Origin: a virus
Length of the DNA: 64,000 nt
Strand: one strand, 5' to 3'
Virus record (IMG/VR): IMGVR_UViG_3300048914_000231
Coordinates: 50,063 to 114,062 of that record
The translations under genes and the position numbers were made by a program. The notes under the pieces are model-generated. The model was not told the DNA's origin. It saw only the letters and a program-made list of their open reading frames with translations, and made no database searches. The first letter of the stretch is position 1. The number at the start of each line of letters is the position of its first letter. Below are positions 28,039-47,029 of this stretch, piece after piece.

Positions 28039-29766
28039 ATGGAAAAAGTAACGATCGCGCGTAACGCCGTGACAGCCATGCTGCACAAGCCCAGTCGCGA
28101 TGTAAAACTGGAAGTGCAGGCGATTCTGTCGTACGCGGTCGCCGGCGCCGAGCATGCGATCGCCTTCAAAAAGGGGGTGTGGGACGGGCGCTCGTCGTTC
28201 CTGGACTTCAGGAACGGCACCTTCCCGGCCGGCTTTACGCACTACGTCACGGCGCACCTGCGGCGCAAGGGGTACGAGGTGCAGATCGCCCAGAAGGCCC
28301 TGCCCGAGCCGCTCGGCCCGGAAAACCCGGTGGTCGACGCCTTTCCGGAAGACCCGCGCTACGACTACCAGATGGAAACCGTGCGGCGTCTGGTCAAGCA
28401 CGGCCAGATCATCGCCCAGATCGCCACCGGCGGCGGCAAGAGCCGTACCGCGCGCCTGGCGTACGCGCGCATCAACCGCATGACCCTGTTCATCACGACG
28501 CGCTCGATCCTCATGTACCAGATGAAGGACAGTTTCGAGCGCGACCTTGGCGTGCCGGTATCGGTGCTGGGCGATGGCCAGTTCGGTCACACCACGTCGG
28601 ACGGGCGCCAGGCGGTGCGCAAGATGTGCGTCGGCATGGTGCAGACCCTGGCGGCCAAGCTGAAGGAAAAGACGGTCGAGGGCGAAGTCGAGGCCGTGAT
28701 CGACGCGCTGGTGGCCAGGGAGCTCAAGGCGGTCAAGGCGCTGGAGAAGAAGCTGGTCGACGCCGGTGCCACGCCGGCGCAGGTCAGGGCCCGGGTCAGG
28801 CAGCTGGAAGAACAGCAGCTGGCCGCGCGCTCGGACTCGAAAAAGATCCAGGCCGATTGCGCCGTCAAGGTGCATGAGCACATGGCGATGCGCGCGCGGG
28901 TGATTGAATTGCTGGGCCGGTTCGAATTCGTGATCATCGAAGAGGCGCACGAGGCATCGGCCGAGGATTTCTACAACGTCATGCAGCACTGCAAGAGCGC
29001 GCACTACCGCATGGCGCTGACGGCGACGCCGTTCATGAAGGCCGACGAAGAGGCGAACATGCGCCTGATGGCGGTGTCCGGCCCGATCGCGATCAAGGTG
29101 TCCGAGCAGACCCTGATCGACCGCGGCATTCTGGCCCAGCCGCATTTTCGCTTCATCCCGTGGGCCGGCAAGCCGCCCAAGCTGTTCAAGCACACCGGCT
29201 GGGCGTCGGCGTACCGGCTTGGCATCACCGAGCACGAATGGCGCAACCAGACCGCGACCGCCGTGTGCCGGCGCTTTGCCGAGTATGGTCTGACGTCGAT
29301 GGTGCTGGTACAGCACACCGCGCACGGTGAGACCGTCAGGCGCCTGATGCTGGCCGCCGGCCTGCGCGTGGATTTCATCCAGGGCGAGGATGACCAGGAC
29401 GGGCGCAAGGCAGCACTGCAGCGCCTGGCGCGCGGCGAACTCGACATCCTGATCGGCACCACGATCCTCGACGTCGGCGTGGACGTGCCGGCCGTCGGTC
29501 ACATCTGCCTGCTGGGTGGTGGCAAGGCCGAGGTGCAGCTGCGTCAGCGTATCGGGCGCGGCCTGCGCGAGAAGAAGAACGGCATGCCGAACCTGTGCTT
29601 TGTGACCGACTTCGCCGACACGCTCAACGAGCACCTGCACAACCATGCCAGACAGCGTCAGGCGATCATCAGGGACACGCCGGGATTCGACCGCTTCATC
29701 CTCTCCGACGGGCGCGACTTCGACCTGGAGGCGCTCGGCTTCAGGCGGCTGGCGGCAGCGGCGTGA
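28039..29766 (+). CDS. Superfamily 2 helicase
   Basis: ATGGGKS, EEAH, LTATP, GVDVP, QRIGRGLR. Confidence 0.95.
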   Translation: MEKVTIARNAVTAMLHKPSRDVKLEVQAILSYAVAGAEHAIAFKKGVWDGRSSFLDFRNGTFPAGFTHYVTAHLRRKGYEVQIAQKALPEPLGPENPVVDAFPEDPRYDYQMETVRRLVKHGQIIAQIATGGGKSRTARLAYARINRMTLFITTRSILMYQMKDSFERDLGVPVSVLGDGQFGHTTSDGRQAVRKMCVGMVQTLAAKLKEKTVEGEVEAVIDALVARELKAVKALEKKLVDAGATPAQVRARVRQLEEQQLAARSDSKKIQADCAVKVHEHMAMRARVIELLGRFEFVIIEEAHEASAEDFYNVMQHCKSAHYRMALTATPFMKADEEANMRLMAVSGPIAIKVSEQTLIDRGILAQPHFRFIPWAGKPPKLFKHTGWASAYRLGITEHEWRNQTATAVCRRFAEYGLTSMVLVQHTAHGETVRRLMLAAGLRVDFIQGEDDQDGRKAALQRLARGELDILIGTTILDVGVDVPAVGHICLLGGGKAEVQLRQRIGRGLREKKNGMPNLCFVTDFADTLNEHLHNHARQRQAIIRDTPGFDRFILSDGRDFDLEALGFRRLAAAA

Positions 29767-30081: not shown

Positions 30082-30105
30082 AGCGCCCCACGGGGCGCTT
30101 TTTTT
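30082..30105 (+). terminator. Intrinsic terminator
   Basis: AGCGCCCC-AC-GGGGCGCT followed by a T run. Confidence 0.75.
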
Positions 30106-30107
30106 AT

Positions 30108-30138
30108 TTGCGTTCACAAGATGAACGCACGCTATAAT
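30108..30138 (+). promoter_or_regulatory. Promoter with inverted-repeat operator for the array operon
   Basis: Perfect TATAAT at 30133; TGCGTTCA-N5-TGAACGCA at 30109-30129. Confidence 0.7.
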
Positions 30139-30173
30139 GAATGCACAGAATCACAAATGAACCGGAGAATTAA

Positions 30174-30458
30174 ATGAGCAATATTGACAAGCGCAACCGC
30201 TTTTCCATCGATCTGCCACCCGACTGGCAGGATTACCTGGCGCACACCGCCCGAATTCACCGGCTGACGCAGGGCGAGGTGGTGCAAACCCTGCTGGCCA
30301 ACATGCACAGCTGCGCCGGCATCGAGCAGGCTCTTGCCGCGCGGCGCGAGGAAAAGGTGGCAGCAAGGCGCAGCAAGGCGTCGATGACCGCGGCATTCAA
30401 GCAGTTGACACCCGAGCAACAGCGGCGCGCGCTGGAGGCGCTCGGAGCCGAATCGTGA
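30174..30458 (+). CDS. Ribbon-helix-helix-like DNA-binding protein
   Basis: RFSIDLP strand followed by two helices (DYLAHTAR / TQGEVVQTLL). Confidence 0.65.
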   Translation: MSNIDKRNRFSIDLPPDWQDYLAHTARIHRLTQGEVVQTLLANMHSCAGIEQALAARREEKVAARRSKASMTAAFKQLTPEQQRRALEALGAES

Positions 30459-30754
30459 AAGACAGGGCACCCGGGCCGAAGCCGGTTGAGGTGTGCCGGC
30501 ATGTATTCCGGCACGCGACGCTGAAGACGATCAATGCCAGGGTTGACCACATCGAATGGATCTTCTTCGAAGGTGAGAAATGGCCGCGCCAGCTGGTGTA
30601 TTTCACGAATGGATCGACCACGTTTGACGCCGCCGCACAGTGGACGCTGGCCCAGGCCAATGCGCTGGCCGAAACGGGCAACTGGACCAGGGAAATCTTC
30701 ATGACCGTGGAAAACGACAGGCCGGATGCATCGTACGGTACGGAGGTATGGTGA
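30455..30754 (+). CDS. Array ORF A, hypothetical
   Basis: GTGA-coupled; ends DRP...EVW. Confidence 0.75.
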   Translation: MKDRAPGPKPVEVCRHVFRHATLKTINARVDHIEWIFFEGEKWPRQLVYFTNGSTTFDAAAQWTLAQANALAETGNWTREIFMTVENDRPDASYGTEVW

Positions 30755-31029
30755 ACCTGCTGTTTATTGAACTGCATTCTGAAAAACTCAGGGATACCGC
30801 GCCGTTTGTGACGGCGTACGACCTGGATTATCCCGGGCCGAACAAGCGTCAGTGGCGCGTCGACAGGGCGCGCGGTGTCGAGTCCGGGGTCAATCGCGAT
30901 GGGAGTGGCATGCGGGGTGTATGGGCGTATCTGGCGGCCGGCACCTGGCTGCAGCTGACGCAGCAGGAAGCCTATACCAAATTTCCTGAACTGCAGACGG
31001 CGATCGAAAACTGGGTGGAGCCATGGTAA
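30748..31029 (+). CDS. Array ORF B, hypothetical
   Basis: Start corrected to ATG 30748; MVN...VEPW. Confidence 0.75.
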   Translation: MVNLLFIELHSEKLRDTAPFVTAYDLDYPGPNKRQWRVDRARGVESGVNRDGSGMRGVWAYLAAGTWLQLTQQEAYTKFPELQTAIENWVEPW

Positions 31030-31379
31030 ATCTGAGCAACAGCATAACGTACGAGAACTACCTGTACCTGCGCCGGCAGCTGGGTGAACAGGAAAACGGC
31101 GACTGGCCGTCGTCATCATGGAACATCATGTCGGCATCAGGCACGCAAAACGTGATCAACACCATGCTTGCCAAATGCGAAAACCTGATGCGCGAGCGTG
31201 ATCTGTCATGGGAGGCGTACAAGAAAGTGTGGAGCAAGGGGTCGGTGCCTGCGTATTTAAATCCGACCGCCTGGGAGGAAGCGCCGCTGTTCATCAAGGC
31301 GGCCATCATCAAGCCGCGTGAGGTGGGTATCGTTGACGTGCGCGAGGACGTGCCGCAAAGCGAGGTGACGCCATGGTGA
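31023..31379 (+). CDS. Array ORF C, two copies of the YxxY..W module
   Basis: TYENY...W / SWEAY...W; ends DVPQSEVTPW. Confidence 0.8.
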   Translation: MVNLSNSITYENYLYLRRQLGEQENGDWPSSSWNIMSASGTQNVINTMLAKCENLMRERDLSWEAYKKVWSKGSVPAYLNPTAWEEAPLFIKAAIIKPREVGIVDVREDVPQSEVTPW

Positions 31380-31588
31380 GATACCGGCCCGACGGACGCA
31401 AAATTGACACGAGCTACGCCAACTATCTGCGTCTGGCCGGTTTGAACCTGATCAGCGCCGACAACCAGCTGACGTCGAACGACTGGAACTGGCTTGATAT
31501 GGACGGCAAGGCTGGTGAAATCGAGCGCCTGATGAACCTGGCCGAAGTGCGCGACCGGCCGGAAAGCGGCGGGGTGGTGGCATGGTAG
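31373..31588 (+). CDS. Array ORF D
   Basis: SYANY...W; ends DRPESGGVVAW. Confidence 0.8.
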   Translation: MVRYRPDGRKIDTSYANYLRLAGLNLISADNQLTSNDWNWLDMDGKAGEIERLMNLAEVRDRPESGGVVAW

Positions 31589-31785
31589 AGCGTCTGTCCT
31601 ACCGTCATTACAAGTCGCTTCATTTTGCCGCCGGTTATGGAGAAGGTGAACTGGCCGACATCGTCATGTGGATGGATACGCCCGACCAGCTGAAACTCGC
31701 CGAGATTGAAATGCTGGAAGAACGCCTGCGCGAGATTCGTGACGAGGTGTCCGATATACCAACCAGCATGGTGACGCCATGGTAA
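31582..31785 (+). CDS. Array ORF E
   Basis: SYRHY...W; ends DIPTSMVTPW. Confidence 0.8.
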   Translation: MVERLSYRHYKSLHFAAGYGEGELADIVMWMDTPDQLKLAEIEMLEERLREIRDEVSDIPTSMVTPW

Positions 31786-31982
31786 AAGATTCAGCCTACC
31801 CTTACGAACGTTATGTGGAGTATTTCAAGATCGTCTGGCCAGGCATGCACCCGATGGATGAATATGAATGGTATGTGCGGCATGGACGCACGGCGCGCGC
31901 GAGGACGATCAAGATACTCGTTCGGCAGATTCCAGATCATCAGCGCAAAGCGCCATTCTTGAAGGAGAGGGTCACATGGTAG
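31779..31982 (+). CDS. Array ORF F
   Basis: PYERY...W; ends ERVTW. Confidence 0.8.
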   Translation: MVKDSAYPYERYVEYFKIVWPGMHPMDEYEWYVRHGRTARARTIKILVRQIPDHQRKAPFLKERVTW

Positions 31983-32182
31983 ACGTGAGCTATGACCGTT
32001 TTTACGCTTTGCGCAGGGCGCTGGATATGCCAGAAGAGGGGGAGGTGGCGCGCAGCAGGTGGGAGATTCTGCCGGAGGCGCATCGGCAAAGCGTCATCGC
32101 CATGATGACCGGCACGCTCAACGGGCGCAACACCGTCCTGTTCCCGTGCGACGCGCCTGAAAGTGAGGTGGTGCCATGGTAG
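31976..32182 (+). CDS. Array ORF G
   Basis: Start corrected to ATG 31976; SYDRF...W; ends DAPESEVVPW. Confidence 0.8.
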   Translation: MVDVSYDRFYALRRALDMPEEGEVARSRWEILPEAHRQSVIAMMTGTLNGRNTVLFPCDAPESEVVPW

Positions 32183-32385
32183 AGGATTGCACTTACGAGC
32201 AATACAAGGCGGCCTGCGTATCGATCAACGAAAAAGCATGTTGGACGCGAGGAGGATGGCTGGGCTTGGTCAAAGACGCGCGGATCGCGGTCATGGCAAA
32301 CCTGTTGAATGCCGGGGCCTGGTGGCCCGATAGGGAGCTTGGCGAGGGTGAGGATGTTCCAGAAACTGAGGTGACGCCATGGTAG
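32176..32385 (+). CDS. Array ORF H
   Basis: TYEQY...W; ends DVPETEVTPW. Confidence 0.8.
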   Translation: MVEDCTYEQYKAACVSINEKACWTRGGWLGLVKDARIAVMANLLNAGAWWPDRELGEGEDVPETEVTPW

Positions 32386-32573
32386 AGGAATTGTCGTACG
32401 AAGCATATCTGCGTCTTCGGCGCGCCGCCAGGCGCGAGGAAGCGCATGACGTCTCGCGCGAATCCTGGGAAGGCGGCAAGGTGGCGCGACGCTTCGTCAT
32501 CAGCTGGCTCACGCGGGAGATCGGGCAGCGCGTCGATGCGCAGGAACTGCCCGAATGGGGAACATGGGGATAG
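32379..32573 (+). CDS. Array ORF I (last)
   Basis: SYEAY...W; ends ELPEWGTWG. Confidence 0.8.
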   Translation: MVEELSYEAYLRLRRAARREEAHDVSRESWEGGKVARRFVISWLTREIGQRVDAQELPEWGTWG

Positions 32574-32619
32574 GGAAATTGGGAGCCTGACCTGGCGGTC
32601 TCTGTCGATGGGAAATTGG

Positions 32620-32828
32620 TATAAGGATCGCGTATCCGAGGACCGGGGCCATGTATAAGGATCGATCGTTTTCGGGCCGGCCCGGAAATATAAGGAAGGG
32701 TTATTGGAGACCGGAAGTTGAGGAAGGCTGGGCCATCAAAGGGCGAAATCCGCCCTAAGACATCGGTCTCGCGCGCACGCGTCGCGCGTCGCTTACAACC
32801 CGCACATTGACAGAATCTGCGAGACCGA
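32620..32828. repeat. Three phased TATAAGGA repeats plus a 10-bp inverted repeat
   Basis: TATAAGGA at 32620, 32654, 32689; TCGGTCTCGC 32763-32772 / GCGAGACCGA 32819-32828. Confidence 0.75.
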
Positions 32829-36792: not shown

Positions 36793-37440
36793 CTACCAGT
36801 TGGCCCACGTGTCGTAGGCGTCGATGCGAATTTCGTGTTCCAGCCTGATTTCGCTGCGCATCTGCCCGATCATGTCGATGCGCCAGTTGATCCGGATGGC
36901 GCGGTTTTCGATACGGTCCTGGCTGCAGTTGTCGATGACGACCTGATCCCTGAAGCCGTTGTGAAAATACAGAACCATGCAGCCGCTTTTTGCCTCGACG
37001 CTTGCGATATTTTCCCTTTGAACGATGGCCCAGTCGTGCCGGTCATCCTTCAGAAGCAGATTCATCTTTTCGGCCCGGTGTCTGGCCACGAGATTGCTTG
37101 AGCAGGTTTCGATCACGTCCCGCCGGTCGTGGTTCGTCGTTCTGATTCTGTACGTCAGGTTGAAGCCGTCGGCGCCGAATTCGGCATGGTAATCGCCGTT
37201 CGTGTCGCGCTCGATCAGCAGCCGGTTGATCCGGTCGATGCGCTCGTGCGTCAGGATATTGTCTCTGCTGCCGTCCGTGATCGCATACAGAATATCGGAC
37301 TGGTTCAGACGCTCCTGATAAATGTTGCCGGCGTCGTTGATGTAGACCCGCACCATCAGCGGATCGATTGTCACATTCGTGGCGTCGTTTTCCAGGCGCT
37401 CCTGCTGCGCGTGCGCTTCCTGTTGTTCCCGCCGATTCAT
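36793..37440 (-). CDS. Hypothetical protein
   Basis: RBS AGGAGGG. Confidence 0.7.
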   Translation of the reverse strand: MNRREQQEAHAQQERLENDATNVTIDPLMVRVYINDAGNIYQERLNQSDILYAITDGSRDNILTHERIDRINRLLIERDTNGDYHAEFGADGFNLTYRIRTTNHDRRDVIETCSSNLVARHRAEKMNLLLKDDRHDWAIVQRENIASVEAKSGCMVLYFHNGFRDQVVIDNCSQDRIENRAIRINWRIDMIGQMRSEIRLEHEIRIDAYDTWANW

Positions 37441-37584
37441 TTTCACCCCTCCTGCGCTATACTGCCTTCGACACGCTCGTGTCCCTTCTGCTTAGGCGCC
37501 CTGACCCCTGCACTCTGCGCCGGTGCACTGTTCGCTGCCATCCCAGCATTGCCGGTGACGTTCTTCCCAGCGTCACCGGCATTT

Positions 37585-42575: not shown

Positions 42576-42875
42576 TTACCAGCTGCCGGCCAGCGTATGG
42601 GTTGGCAGGTCGGCTTTGGCCAGTTCGTGCGCCTTGAGCCAAATCGCCTGTTCCCATTGCAGGTCGTGCCACAGTTTGTCGAAGCCACGGGTGCGTTTTT
42701 CAAGCCATTTGCCCTGTTCCAGTTGCAGGTCGCGCCAGGCCTGCTCCCACGCCTGGCGTTCCAGCTCGACGCGAACGCGCTCGCGCACGACCCTGTTGGC
42801 TTTCTCGCGCTCACGCAGCGCGGCGGCCTTCTGGATCTGATCGCGCTGCCTGACGCGTTTCTGCTTCTTGTTCAC
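42576..42875 (-). CDS. Basic coiled-coil hypothetical protein
   Basis: Internal W.DLQ.EQ..WL duplication. Confidence 0.55.
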   Translation of the reverse strand: MNKKQKRVRQRDQIQKAAALREREKANRVVRERVRVELERQAWEQAWRDLQLEQGKWLEKRTRGFDKLWHDLQWEQAIWLKAHELAKADLPTHTLAGSW

Positions 42876-46291: not shown

Positions 46292-46604
46292 GAGCCACCT
46301 CCCTGATCAGCTGGTCGATCAGCTTCAGACGCCCGCGCTTTTGCCAGCCCAGGCCGGACTTCTCGATGCCGGGGTCGGTCTGCGCCATCGCCCACAGGCT
46401 GTAGTAGGCGTAAGGGTCGATGATGTCACGCACCTTGTAAACAAAGTCCGTGATCTGCTGCGGCGTGCCGAACTGCCGGCCAACGACCTCGATGGCGTTG
46501 CAGATGAAGCGCTCGTCATCGCGCTCGATCATGGCGCGCACCTTCTGCAGGAATTCGACATCGGTGACGCTCTGGCGCGCCAGTGGTTTTGCGAGCGTCA
46601 CCAT
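46284..46604 (-). CDS. Hypothetical protein
   Basis: ICNAI...Y..W...R. Confidence 0.7.
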   Translation of the reverse strand: MVTLAKPLARQSVTDVEFLQKVRAMIERDDERFICNAIEVVGRQFGTPQQITDFVYKVRDIIDPYAYYSLWAMAQTDPGIEKSGLGWQKRGRLKLIDQLIREVAHG

Positions 46605-47029
46605 GCTGCGTCTCCGTCAAAGCCAGGCAGGACGATCATCGAGTCGGGCAGGTCCGGGTTGATCGGCTTGAGCGTGTTGCCTTCCTCGACGAACTTGCCG
46701 CCGTTGCTGTGCGATTCGGTCCACGAGGTCAGAAACTCCTCGTAGTGCGCGATCGCCTCTGCCTCGTTGCGGTGCCAGGTCTCGCCGTTCAGGGCGTCGC
46801 GCACCATTTCGCCGTTCTCCAGGTAGTTGTGGACGGTCATCCTGAATACCTTCTTGTAGGCTTCGAAGACGTTCTGCACGCCGTCGATCTTGCCGTACCA
46901 TTCCACCTCCACGTGCACGCGGCCGTTGTCATAGCGCCTGACCGAAACATAAGCCGCGTCCTGACGTAGTTCGATCCAGCGTTCGCGCCTGATATCATTG
47001 TCCTTGCGGTCCAAATATTGTGTTGCCAT
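46598..47029 (-). CDS. Hypothetical protein
   Basis: 143 aa, good RBS. Confidence 0.75.
   Translation of the reverse strand: MATQYLDRKDNDIRRERWIELRQDAAYVSVRRYDNGRVHVEVEWYGKIDGVQNVFEAYKKVFRMTVHNYLENGEMVRDALNGETWHRNEAEAIAHYEEFLTSWTESHSNGGKFVEEGNTLKPINPDLPDSMIVLPGFDGDAAW

What the first reader, a model, noticed from the sequence alone, without database searches (positions are those of the whole stretch)
30455..32573. Chain of nine small genes joined by one repeated junction: candidate cassette array
Seen: eight successive boundaries (ATG at 30748, 31023, 31373, 31582, 31779, 31976, 32176, 32379) all use the same 7-nt overlap ATGGTRR, so each upstream gene ends Trp-stop and each downstream gene starts Met-Val. 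Best copies read GAGGTGACGCCATGGT (31362, 32368), GAGGTGGTGCCATGGT (32165) and GGTGACGCCATGGT (31770), packing RBS, stop and start into ~18 bp. The last six units are ~200 bp each, with little DNA similarity between junctions. Most other overlaps in the window are the usual ATGA type (one similar junction at 46598-46604). Inference: units are self-contained cassettes; recombination between junctions would add, delete or reorder genes while keeping translational coupling, giving an expandable repertoire with no integrase or attC. I know no described system matching this.
Basis: partly seen in the sequence, partly recalled or inferred. Interest (0 to 1): 0.9.

Follow-up and report, generated by a model that had tools for sequence, protein, structure and literature searches.

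The report
Chained phage genes with tryptophan tails
A soil phage carries an operon of nine tiny genes, seven of them diverged copies of one unknown three-helix protein, each ending in a tryptophan-ended tail whose codons also hold the ribosome site and start of the next gene; related phages have gained or lost whole genes exactly at these joints.

Summary
Eight successive boundaries use ATGGTRR, so each upstream gene ends Trp-stop and each downstream gene starts Met-Val.

The units are not unrelated cassettes.
- U3 to U9 are paralogs of an undescribed domain of about 55 aa with three helices. A profile built only from other phages' proteins scores them at E 1e-19 to 6e-6.
- U1 and U2 have different bodies but the same acidic tail, D-x-P-E...W.

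That tail, or a Y-G-x-W variant, also sits on unrelated proteins:
- elsewhere in this 114-kb genome: 17 of 141 predicted genes end in Trp, P about 1e-11;
- on BRCT proteins of Stenotrophomonas phages;
- on the last gene of the array, which has no gene after it.

I read Trp-stop as the primary constraint. ATGGTRR is then the tightest ATG start that fits it, and Glu-Val (GAGGTG) supplies the Shine-Dalgarno site.

Two relatives with helicases 81-82% identical carry different unit sets, and every difference runs from joint to joint. I found no integrase, no attC-like hairpin and no deletion joints in contigs.

The function and the tail's partner are unknown.

The scan noted a Trp-tailed operon on other DNA before (e1-6006731).

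The parts
30082..30109 (+). Intrinsic terminator (7-bp GC stem followed by a T run) that closes the helicase / membrane-protein unit just before the array operon
   Evidence: the same hairpin and T run are present in L003 and L013
30127..30146 (+). Conserved block GCACGC-TATAAT (-10 hexamer at 30133-30138), the likely promoter of the array operon
   Evidence: Read directly and nearly identical in all three phages. The consensus scanner did not list it, because no good -35 is present. Its function is inferred.
30174..30458 (+). geneA, 94 aa, first gene of the operon. It looks ribbon-helix-helix-like by eye only. Its stop overlaps the U1 start as GTGA.
   Evidence: only PHROG 3203, unknown function, E 4e-4; 69% and 54% aa identity to L003 and L013, pN below pS
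30455..30754 (+). U1, 99 aa. The body is unrelated to the family; the tail is D-R-P-D...Y-G-T-E-V-W.
   Evidence: orthologs in L003 and L013
30748..31029 (+). U2, 93 aa. Unrelated body, ending in ...W-V-E-P-W.
   Evidence: 66% aa identity to the L013 ortholog
31023..31379 (+). U3, 118 aa. Family member with a long insert, possibly a degenerate second domain.
   Evidence: E 6.8e-10; orthologs P0011 (= L003) and P0020
31373..31588 (+). U4, 71 aa, family member
   Evidence: E 5e-19; orthogroup of 7 rows with support 100/99
31582..31785 (+). U5, 67 aa, family member, fast-evolving
   Evidence: E 3.9e-8; nearest relative is P0015
31779..31982 (+). U6, 67 aa, the most divergent family member
   Evidence: E 5.3e-11; ortholog P0010, support 100/100
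31976..32182 (+). U7, 68 aa, family member. Modelled as three helices (6-15, 26-31, 34-54) plus a low-confidence tail.
   Evidence: (E 4.8e-15); ortholog P0013, support 99/96
32176..32385 (+). U8, 69 aa, family member with no clear ortholog
   Evidence: (E 6.1e-6)
32379..32573 (+). U9, 64 aa, last gene of the operon. Family member ending in ...P-E-W-G-T-W-G, although no gene follows it.
   Evidence: E 9.3e-20; orthologs P0009, P0014 and the L013 U9
32678..32738 (.). Conserved non-coding block just after the array. It is near-identical in L013, whereas the genes are only about 65-70% identical.
   Evidence: no Rfam match; no notable fold

Best explanation
This is a ten-gene operon of a 114-kb siphophage from root metagenomes. 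It consists of geneA and nine small genes and has its own promoter behind a terminator. The nine genes are real and translated. Seven (U3-U9) are old, diverged tandem paralogs of an undescribed domain of about 55 aa. That domain has three helices, an N-terminal S-Y-x-x-Y-L-x-L-R-R, a central Trp, and a disordered tail of about 12 aa, D-x-P-E...W. U1 and U2 have unrelated bodies but the same kind of tail.

The primary constraint is at protein level: these proteins must end in an acidic, Trp-terminated tail. This is probably a docking tag for one shared partner; that step is inferred. Given UGG followed by a stop codon, the tightest way to place an AUG is one base before the UGG. This gives A-UGG-U-RR and forces Met-Val on the next protein. 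The Glu-Val or Glu-Gly codons of the tail (GAGGTG, GAAGGAG) supply a Shine-Dalgarno site 4-8 nt upstream. The last five or six codons are therefore read twice: as tail, and as ribosome site plus start plus stop. A terminating ribosome stands 4 nt from the next start. I infer translational coupling that gives roughly equal amounts of all nine proteins.

Because the same 15-35 nt of tail and joint recur at every boundary, unequal recombination or replication slippage between them removes, duplicates or inserts whole units without breaking the chain. That accounts for the unit-by-unit differences between relatives. Shown here: coding, paralogy, the shared tail, the dual coding, and unit gain and loss at the joints. 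Inferred: coupling, docking, and the recombination mechanism.
For: Coding and paralogy:
- An HMM built only from external homologs hits U3-U9 at E 9e-20 to 6e-6 among 1699 six-frame ORFs of the genome. The next hit is at 0.045 and matches the tail only.
- pN is below pS for every unit compared with L003 or L013.
- Separate orthogroups exist for U3, U4, U6, U7 and U9.
- Natural single-chain forms carry two to four or more copies of the domain (P0012, P0016, P0017, P0023).

Tail on unrelated bodies:
- hhalign of the family against the X family aligns only the 11-residue tail. U1 against X, and the family against U2, give nothing convincing.
- 17 of 141 predicted genes end in Trp, against a Trp frequency of 1.3% (P 1e-11). 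Without the array the count is 9 of 132 (P 8e-5).
- In helicase relatives L004-L010 and in ANB28, the small genes end in ...G-x-W, including two BRCT proteins.

Tail independent of the overlap:
- U9 and its orthologs keep a Trp tail with no gene behind them.
- Trp-tailed genes at window 42576-42875(-) and 36793-37446(-) are followed by gaps.
- Between ANB28 and BUCTxx99, a synonymous TAT to TAC change removes the overlapped ATG while Y-G-G-W stays.
- The D-x-P-E codons vary at third positions, whereas information content rises only from about -12 to +7.

Relatives use the other possible joints:
- L013 and L009 use GTG inside TGGTGA. ANB28 uses TAATG.

Model of U7:
- Three helices, with the tail at pLDDT about 53-55.

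Operon structure:
- A terminator and a conserved TATAAT block precede the operon in all three phages.

Unit turnover at the joints.
Against: - No partner for the tail is known, and no expression data exist; no RNA run was listed.
- Two joints (U1|U2 and U2|U3) have their GGAG only 1-2 nt from the ATG, which is poor for independent initiation.
- No RNA structure hides the starts, so coupling is not enforced by folding.
- A terminal Trp could in part be a by-product of the TGGTGA and ATGGT start solutions rather than their cause.
- Precise unit gains and losses are what selection would leave in any tightly overlapped operon, so they do not prove that the joints are the recombination substrate.
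- My gene calls for the Trp count come from a home-made caller.
Confidence: 0.6

Rival explanations
1. The 16-19-nt joint is a dedicated recombination site, and the units are mobile, self-contained cassettes that are added, deleted and reordered at high frequency. This would give an integron-like expandable repertoire without an integrase.
For: Unit content differs between phages with 81-82% identical helicases, and all differences are joint-to-joint. Unit X is AT-rich, has no homolog of its body in this genome, and sits between U2 and U3/U4 in the relatives. Synonymous divergence in the array (pS 0.58-0.82) exceeds that of the helicase (0.38-0.44), as expected if units are exchanged with more distant phages. 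BUCTxx99 has one extra unit flanked by a 22-nt tail/joint repeat.
Against: Most units have stable orthologs in other phages. The shared units keep the same relative order (U1, U2, U3/U4 ... U9) in all three arrays. No inverted repeat or stable fold lies at the joints. No tyrosine integrase, RecT, ERF or YqaJ is found in the complete genome. Contigs of four metagenomes show no junction-to-junction joints, although contigs cannot show rare forms.
Confidence: 0.2
2. A plain tandem duplication family. The joint and the tail are inherited by descent, then frozen because seven bases serve as start, Trp codon and stop at once. The tail has no function as a peptide.
For: Seven units are paralogs. L013 Ya is sister to the L013 U9, a lineage-specific duplication (98/94). 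The DNA-level conservation covers exactly the Shine-Dalgarno site, the start and the stop.
Against: The tail is present on bodies that are not detectably homologous (U1, U2, X, BRCT proteins). It is also present on the terminal unit and on genes without an overlapping successor. It survives loss of the overlapped ATG. The D-x-P-E part lies outside the ribosome site and is conserved only at amino-acid level. Trp termini are enriched genome-wide.
Confidence: 0.15
3. The chain is read as one polyprotein by repeated programmed -1 frameshifting at each joint.
For: Each joint shifts the frame by -1. Single-chain multi-domain homologs exist in other phages (P0012 with 4 matched stretches).
Against: There is no slippery heptamer and no downstream structure at the joints. 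Every unit has its own ATG preceded by a Shine-Dalgarno-like run and an in-frame stop. Relatives replace the joint by GTGA or TAATG forms that do not preserve any frameshift site.
Confidence: 0.03

Closest known systems
PeSL mobile regulatory cassettes of T4-type phages (Arbiol et al. 2010, PMC2839356; PMC4122927)
   Same: A short sequence that carries expression signals is repeated between small, non-essential ORFan genes in a plastic region. Insertions, deletions and replacements between close relatives map to that repeat.
   Different: A PeSL is intergenic: an early promoter plus a stem-loop terminator, so each gene is its own transcription unit. Mini-circles were shown physically for PeSLs. 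Here there is no intergenic DNA, no hairpin and one promoter. The repeat is a translational joint (Shine-Dalgarno, start, stop) that also encodes the C-terminal peptide. No circles or deletions were observed.
Translationally coupled overlapping genes (ATGA / TAATG stop-start overlaps with the Shine-Dalgarno site inside the upstream gene; textbook knowledge)
   Same: Same strand, stop and start overlapping, and the ribosome site inside the upstream coding sequence.
   Different: The 7-nt form is used eight times in a row and is tied to a conserved terminal Trp. Coupling itself is not shown.
Integron gene-cassette arrays
   Same: A row of small, mostly promoterless genes of varied content expressed from one upstream promoter, with unit-wise gain and loss.
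   Different: No IntI, no attC hairpins and no attI. The units overlap instead of being separated by recombination sites, and most units are paralogs.
C-terminal docking tails of replication proteins: E. coli SSB-Ct and phage T7 gp2.5 (own knowledge; the point about terminal aromatic residues and the invariant terminal Trp of McdB is discussed in PMC8359340)
   Same: A disordered acidic tail ending in an aromatic residue, kept on proteins whose bodies vary.
   Different: The sequence is different (D-x-P-E...W, or Y-G-x-W in relatives), and the tail is carried by many small ORFan proteins rather than by one hub protein. No partner is known. The phage has no Pfam SSB.
Hyperplastic early-gene regions and tandem paralog arrays of large phages
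   Same: Clusters of small, fast-evolving genes of unknown function that differ between close relatives.
   Different: This one has a uniform joint, a shared tail and a definable new domain family.

Membership tests
Integron gene-cassette array | IntI-type tyrosine recombinase encoded next to the array | tested here: not met
   PF00589 has no match in the complete 114-kb genome, while the controls rang in 14 of 14 genomes
Integron gene-cassette array | attC site (imperfect inverted repeat, folded single strand) at the 3' end of each cassette | tested here: not met
   No inverted repeat at any joint. Folds of 81-nt windows around all eight joints give z-scores from -0.76 to +1.55.
PeSL regulatory cassettes (T4-type phages) | Sigma-70-like early promoter plus stem-loop terminator between the ORFs | tested here: not met
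   The genes overlap by 7 nt. No promoter-like or terminator-like site lies at the joints.
PeSL regulatory cassettes (T4-type phages) | Gains and losses between close relatives bounded by the repeated element | tested here: met
   Window compared with L003 and L013; ANB28 compared with BUCTxx99
PeSL regulatory cassettes (T4-type phages) | Circular excision products between neighbouring elements | not testable with these tools
   Only assembled contigs of the runs could be laid. None showed joints at the unit boundaries.
Translationally coupled overlapping genes | Same-strand stop/start overlap with a Shine-Dalgarno-like run inside the upstream gene | tested here: met
   There are eight ATGGTRR overlaps. 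GAGGTG, GGGGTG or AAGGAG lies 4-8 nt upstream at five joints (six counting the weak GGTG before U6), and GGAG lies 1-2 nt upstream at the other two.
Translationally coupled overlapping genes | Translation of the downstream gene depends on translation of the upstream gene | not testable with these tools
   Needs reporter fusions or ribosome profiling
Unnamed S-Y-x-x-Y-L-x-L-R-R three-helix domain family (new) | Significant profile similarity to members from other phages | tested here: met
   U3-U9 score E 9e-20 to 6e-6 against an HMM built from external sequences only. 23 proteins reach E<=1e-3 among 1.84 billion representatives. No Pfam, PHROG, PDB, BFVD or Atlas match.
C-terminal docking tail (SSB-Ct / T7 gp2.5 type) | Disordered acidic tail ending in an aromatic residue, conserved on varied bodies | tested here: met
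   Tail pLDDT is about 53-55. Pro and the terminal Trp are invariant in 20 sequences. The tail is shared with unrelated bodies.
C-terminal docking tail (SSB-Ct / T7 gp2.5 type) | The tail binds a defined partner through the terminal aromatic residue | not testable with these tools
   No candidate partner. No Pfam SSB or proteasome/HslV family in the genome.

The most novel reading that the evidence does not exclude
The Trp-ended tail is a docking tag read by one hub protein of the phage or the host. The operon is then a library of small, fast-evolving effector or adaptor domains that all plug into that hub. Because the tail's codons also hold the ribosome site, stop and start of the next gene, the same 20-35 nt would act as a recombination linker. 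That linker would let any tagged gene, related or not, be inserted, lost or duplicated while staying expressed and tagged. This would be a translational counterpart of the PeSL cassette, shared by a whole clade of ~110-kb siphophages (variants D-x-P-E...W and Y-G-x-W).
Probability: 0.25. Interest if true: 0.8.

Novelty: new variant of a known kind. Interest (0 to 1): 0.55.

Why it matters
The finding defines a new small-protein domain family. It also points to a clade-wide, undescribed C-terminal Trp tag on about a tenth of the proteins of these phages, including BRCT proteins in culturable Stenotrophomonas phages. If the tag has one partner, a single pull-down would assign a mode of action to dozens of ORFan genes at once. 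The array is also a clean natural case for an old question in phage evolution: do short conserved 'linker' sequences at gene borders guide modular exchange, or do precise borders only reflect selection? Here the linker is 15-35 nt, sits inside overlapping genes, and three related arrays already differ by whole units.

Tried and rejected
Searches for a family or fold, all without a match:
- Pfam and PHROGs on all ten operon proteins gave noise only.
- Pfam and PHROGs on ten other Trp-tailed proteins gave only ExoX-like_C, on a protein ending W-G-A-F.
- Foldseek of the U7 model against PDB and BFVD gave nothing below E 0.9.
- The ESM Atlas gave no hit at 0.9 or above.
- Rfam gave nothing.

Searches for relatives:
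- blastn of the array and tblastn of P0011 against the phage collection found no match.
The 112,325-bp JGI contig and the 664-bp ENA contig that hold P0008-P0011 could therefore not be read.
- The search for related loci found nothing with P0009 (viral and metagenome collections), P0012, P0017 or the downstream 238-aa gene.

Reads and binding:
- Sequencing runs: four root-metagenome DNA holders, one of them the probable source. No RNA holder was listed.
- Only contigs could be laid, and they showed no joints at unit boundaries.
- Complex prediction of U7 with U8 gave no answer (score 0.00, controls not run). This says nothing for or against binding.

Ideas dropped:
- The tail docks to a phage HslV/proteasome-like peptidase: no PF00227 in the genome.
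- The tail mimics the phage's own SSB tail: no PF00436.
- An RNA structure at the joints gates translation or recombination: no fold signal.
- U1 and X form a second family: hhalign probability is only 4.6%.

Literature searches for a described Trp-tail tag or a chained 7-nt overlap in these phages found nothing relevant.
Full report
CONTEXT. The window is the last 64 kb of a single-contig virus record of 114,062 bp. The record has direct terminal repeats and is estimated complete. It is a siphophage: central tail fibre J, tape measure, large terminase and RNR large subunit are present. Its UvsW-like helicase (28039-29766, +) is 40-48% identical to those of Pseudomonas phage nickie, Rhizobium RHEph10-like phages, Stenotrophomonas phages ANB28 and BUCTxx99, and SSU5-like phages. 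Identical DNA occurs in contigs of four root-metagenome studies, one of them the probable source. Nearly all genes lie on the minus strand. The helicase and the array are a plus-strand island.

OBSERVATION.
- The 7-mer occurs 32 times in the window against 19.1 +/- 4.4 in shuffles, with 0 of 100 shuffles reaching 32. Nine copies lie within 1.64 kb.
- Unit lengths are all 2 mod 3, so frames cycle 2-1-0 down the chain.
- The longer motif around the ATG is present with at most 2 mismatches at six joints.
- Elsewhere in the genome, overlaps are mainly ATGA/GTGA or 1 nt.

WHAT THE UNITS ARE. The proteins align with a shared N-terminus (M-V-x-x-x-S-Y-E-x-Y-x-x-L-R-R), a central Trp, and a C-terminal D-x-P-E...W.
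- A profile search of 1.84 billion representative proteins found only 23 hits. All are small proteins that start M-V and end in W, or multi-domain fusions of them.
- An HMM built from the external sequences alone picks out exactly U3-U9 among all 1699 six-frame ORFs of the genome, at E 9e-20 to 6e-6. The next hit, at 0.045, matches only the tail.
- U1 and U2 are not detectably related to the family or to each other.
- A tree shows separate, well-supported orthogroups for U4 (100/99), U6 (100/100), U7 (99/96), U3 and U9. The duplications therefore predate the divergence of these phages.
- pN is below pS for every unit compared with relatives, so the plus-strand frames are under purifying selection.
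- AlphaFold models U7 as three helices plus a low-confidence tail (pLDDT 74.7 overall, about 54 in the tail).
- No Pfam, PHROG, PDB, BFVD or Atlas relative was found. This is an undescribed domain family.

THE OPERON. A strong terminator (30082-30109) ends the helicase / membrane-protein unit. A block GCACGC-TATAAT follows, conserved in all three related phages, and then geneA. GeneA and U1-U9 therefore form their own transcription unit. This is inferred from sequence.

THE TAIL IS MORE THAN A JOINT.
(i) Across 18 joints of three phages, DNA-level information rises only from about -12 to +7 (consensus G-A-G-G-T-G-N-N-G-C-C-A-T-G-G-T-R-R). The D-x-P-E codons further upstream vary at third positions. 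The last 5-6 codons are thus dual-coded, while D-x-P-E is conserved as protein.
(ii) The tail sits on unrelated bodies. Profile comparison of the family with unit X aligns only the 11 tail residues.
(iii) Similar tails end other ORFan proteins at genome 759-1190, 2490-2909 and 2903-3244, and at window 42576-42875 (all minus strand).
(iv) By my own gene calls, 17 of 141 genes end in Trp, against a Trp frequency of 1.3% (P 1e-11). Outside the array the count is 9 of 132 (P 8e-5).
(v) U9 and its orthologs, which are the last genes of the operon, still end ...W-G-x-W(G).
(vi) In helicase relatives L004-L010 the small downstream genes end in ...G-x-W.
(vii) In Stenotrophomonas phage ANB28, nine successive genes end in Trp, eight of them with (N/D)-Y-G-x-W. 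Two of these are BRCT-domain proteins (Pfam E 2.6e-7 and 1.3e-6).
(viii) Between ANB28 and BUCTxx99, a synonymous TAT to TAC change removes the overlapped ATG. The next gene then starts at a GTG, yet Y-G-G-W is kept.

Given a terminal UGG plus a stop, only three tight joints are possible, and all three are used in the clade:
- ATG one base before the UGG (7-nt overlap, this phage);
- GTG inside TGGTGA (L013 Ya|Yb, L009);
- TAATG (ANB28).
I therefore read Trp-stop as the cause. ATGGTRR, and the Met-Val start it forces, are its consequence in this lineage.

Two contigs carry helicases 81% (L003, IMG/VR) and 82% (L013, JGI metagenome) identical to the window's, with the same flanking genes on the sides each contig covers.

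Array content:

| Phage | Units in order |
|---|---|
| Window | U1 U2 U3 U4 U5 U6 U7 U8 U9 |
| L003 | U1 U2 X U3 U4 Z... (contig ends) |
| L013 | U1 U2 X U4 Ya Yb U9 |

- X is an AT-rich unit of 87-93 aa with the same tail. Its body has no homolog in the window's genome.
- U3 is absent from L013.
- Ya is a lineage-specific sister of the L013 U9 (98/94).
- Every difference runs from one ATGGT (or GTGGT) to the next.
- The same holds for the Y-G-x-W arrays. BUCTxx99 has one extra 130-aa unit relative to ANB28, flanked by a 22-nt repeat of tail plus TAATG.
- Synonymous divergence in the array (pS 0.58-0.82) is higher than in the adjacent helicase (0.38-0.44). This would fit exchange with more distant phages, although these values are near saturation.

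This supports unit-wise turnover at the joints. It does not prove that the joints are the recombination substrate. In a chain of overlapping genes, only precise events would survive selection.

WHAT ARGUES AGAINST A DEDICATED CASSETTE MACHINE.
- No inverted repeats or stable folds lie at the joints.
- The complete genome has no tyrosine integrase, RecT, ERF or YqaJ.
- Contigs of four runs show no joint-to-joint deletions, though contigs cannot show rare variants.
- The units shared between arrays keep their relative order.
- Most units have stable orthologs.

FUNCTION. Function is unknown. Multi-domain single-chain homologs (P0012 with four matched stretches; P0016, P0017, P0023 with two) suggest that the units act side by side. 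A U7+U8 complex prediction gave no answer. The tail resembles, in kind only, the acidic aromatic-ended tails of SSB and T7 gp2.5. PMC8359340 notes an invariant terminal Trp in McdB and cites reports of proteins involved in virus and phage capsid assembly that also end in Trp. No partner could be named. The genome lacks Pfam SSB and proteasome/HslV families.

COMPARISON WITH KNOWN SYSTEMS. The nearest described concept is the PeSL cassette of T4-type phages (PMC2839356). There, a repeated expression signal between small ORFan genes bounds the gains and losses between relatives and forms mini-circles. In this array the repeat is translational and coding rather than transcriptional and intergenic, and no circles were seen. 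It is not an integron: two defining features were tested and not met.

EARLIER NOTES OF THIS SCAN.
- Notes on this genome had flagged the common tail (e1-6041552) and an aromatic C-terminal tag on other proteins (e1-6041525). I checked both, and they hold.
- A follow-up on another genome (e1-6006731) reached the same 'Trp-ended docking tag behind an RHH-like gene' reading.
- Another follow-up (e1-5844427) read a similar ending as purely dual-coded.
These are leads, not independent evidence.

VERDICT. The 'cassette array' reading is partly right: units are gained and lost at the joints. It misses two main points: the units are a paralogous family, and the joint follows from a conserved Trp tail. 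Novelty is moderate: a new domain family and an undescribed tail/joint arrangement within known kinds of phage gene organisation.

Noticed in passing
window 32573-32760 (core 32678-32738): The non-coding stretch after U9 holds short direct repeats: GTATAAGGATCG twice at 32619 and 32653, and GGGAAATTGG twice. It also holds a block of about 60 nt that is nearly identical in L013, although the neighbouring genes are only about 65-70% identical. The block is purine-rich (A-A-G-G-A-A-G-G motifs). It has no Rfam match and no notable fold, so it may be a protein-binding site.
   Followed up: partly
whole genome (outside the window: genome 759-4350 and 29963-30675, minus strand; window 36793-37446, 42576-42875, 46598-47029, minus strand): Trp is the last residue of 17 of 141 predicted genes. 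Two neighbouring genes at genome 29963-30675 end in W-A-S-W and are joined by TTGGTRR, a possible TTG-start version of the same joint. None of these proteins has a Pfam or PHROG match.
   Followed up: partly
L003 10757-10938: The U2 ortholog of the closest relative carries a perfect 91-bp tandem duplication that shifts its frame. This is either a recently broken gene or an assembly artefact.
   Followed up: no
L001 8972-11342 and L024 10973-14064 (Stenotrophomonas phages ANB28, BUCTxx99): Nine to ten successive small genes downstream of an AAA+ ATPase all end in Trp. All but the last end in (N/D)-Y-G-x-W. Two of them are BRCT-domain proteins. These are culturable phages in which the tail could be studied.
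   Followed up: partly
window 29211 / 33753 (run X3): One contig of depth 2 joins 29211 (inside the helicase gene) to 33753 (inside the 238-aa minus-strand gene) with one extra base, skipping the whole array. It is not at a unit joint. It may be a chimera or a rare deletion.
   Followed up: no
proteins P0012, P0016, P0017, P0023 (other metagenomic phages): The three-helix domain also occurs as two to at least four copies in one polypeptide. In P0012 one internal boundary still reads ...D-D-A-M-V-T..., as if a joint had been fused by a frame change.
   Followed up: no
window 30082-30146; L003 10050-10110; L013 3945-4000: A terminator hairpin is followed directly by a conserved GCACGC-TATAAT block in all three phages. 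GeneA behind it looks ribbon-helix-helix-like by eye and could regulate this promoter.
   Followed up: no
window 30174-32573 compared with 28039-29766: Synonymous divergence from L003 and L013 is much higher in the array operon (pS 0.58-0.82) than in the adjacent helicase (0.38-0.44). This hints at a mosaic history with a boundary near the terminator.
   Followed up: partly
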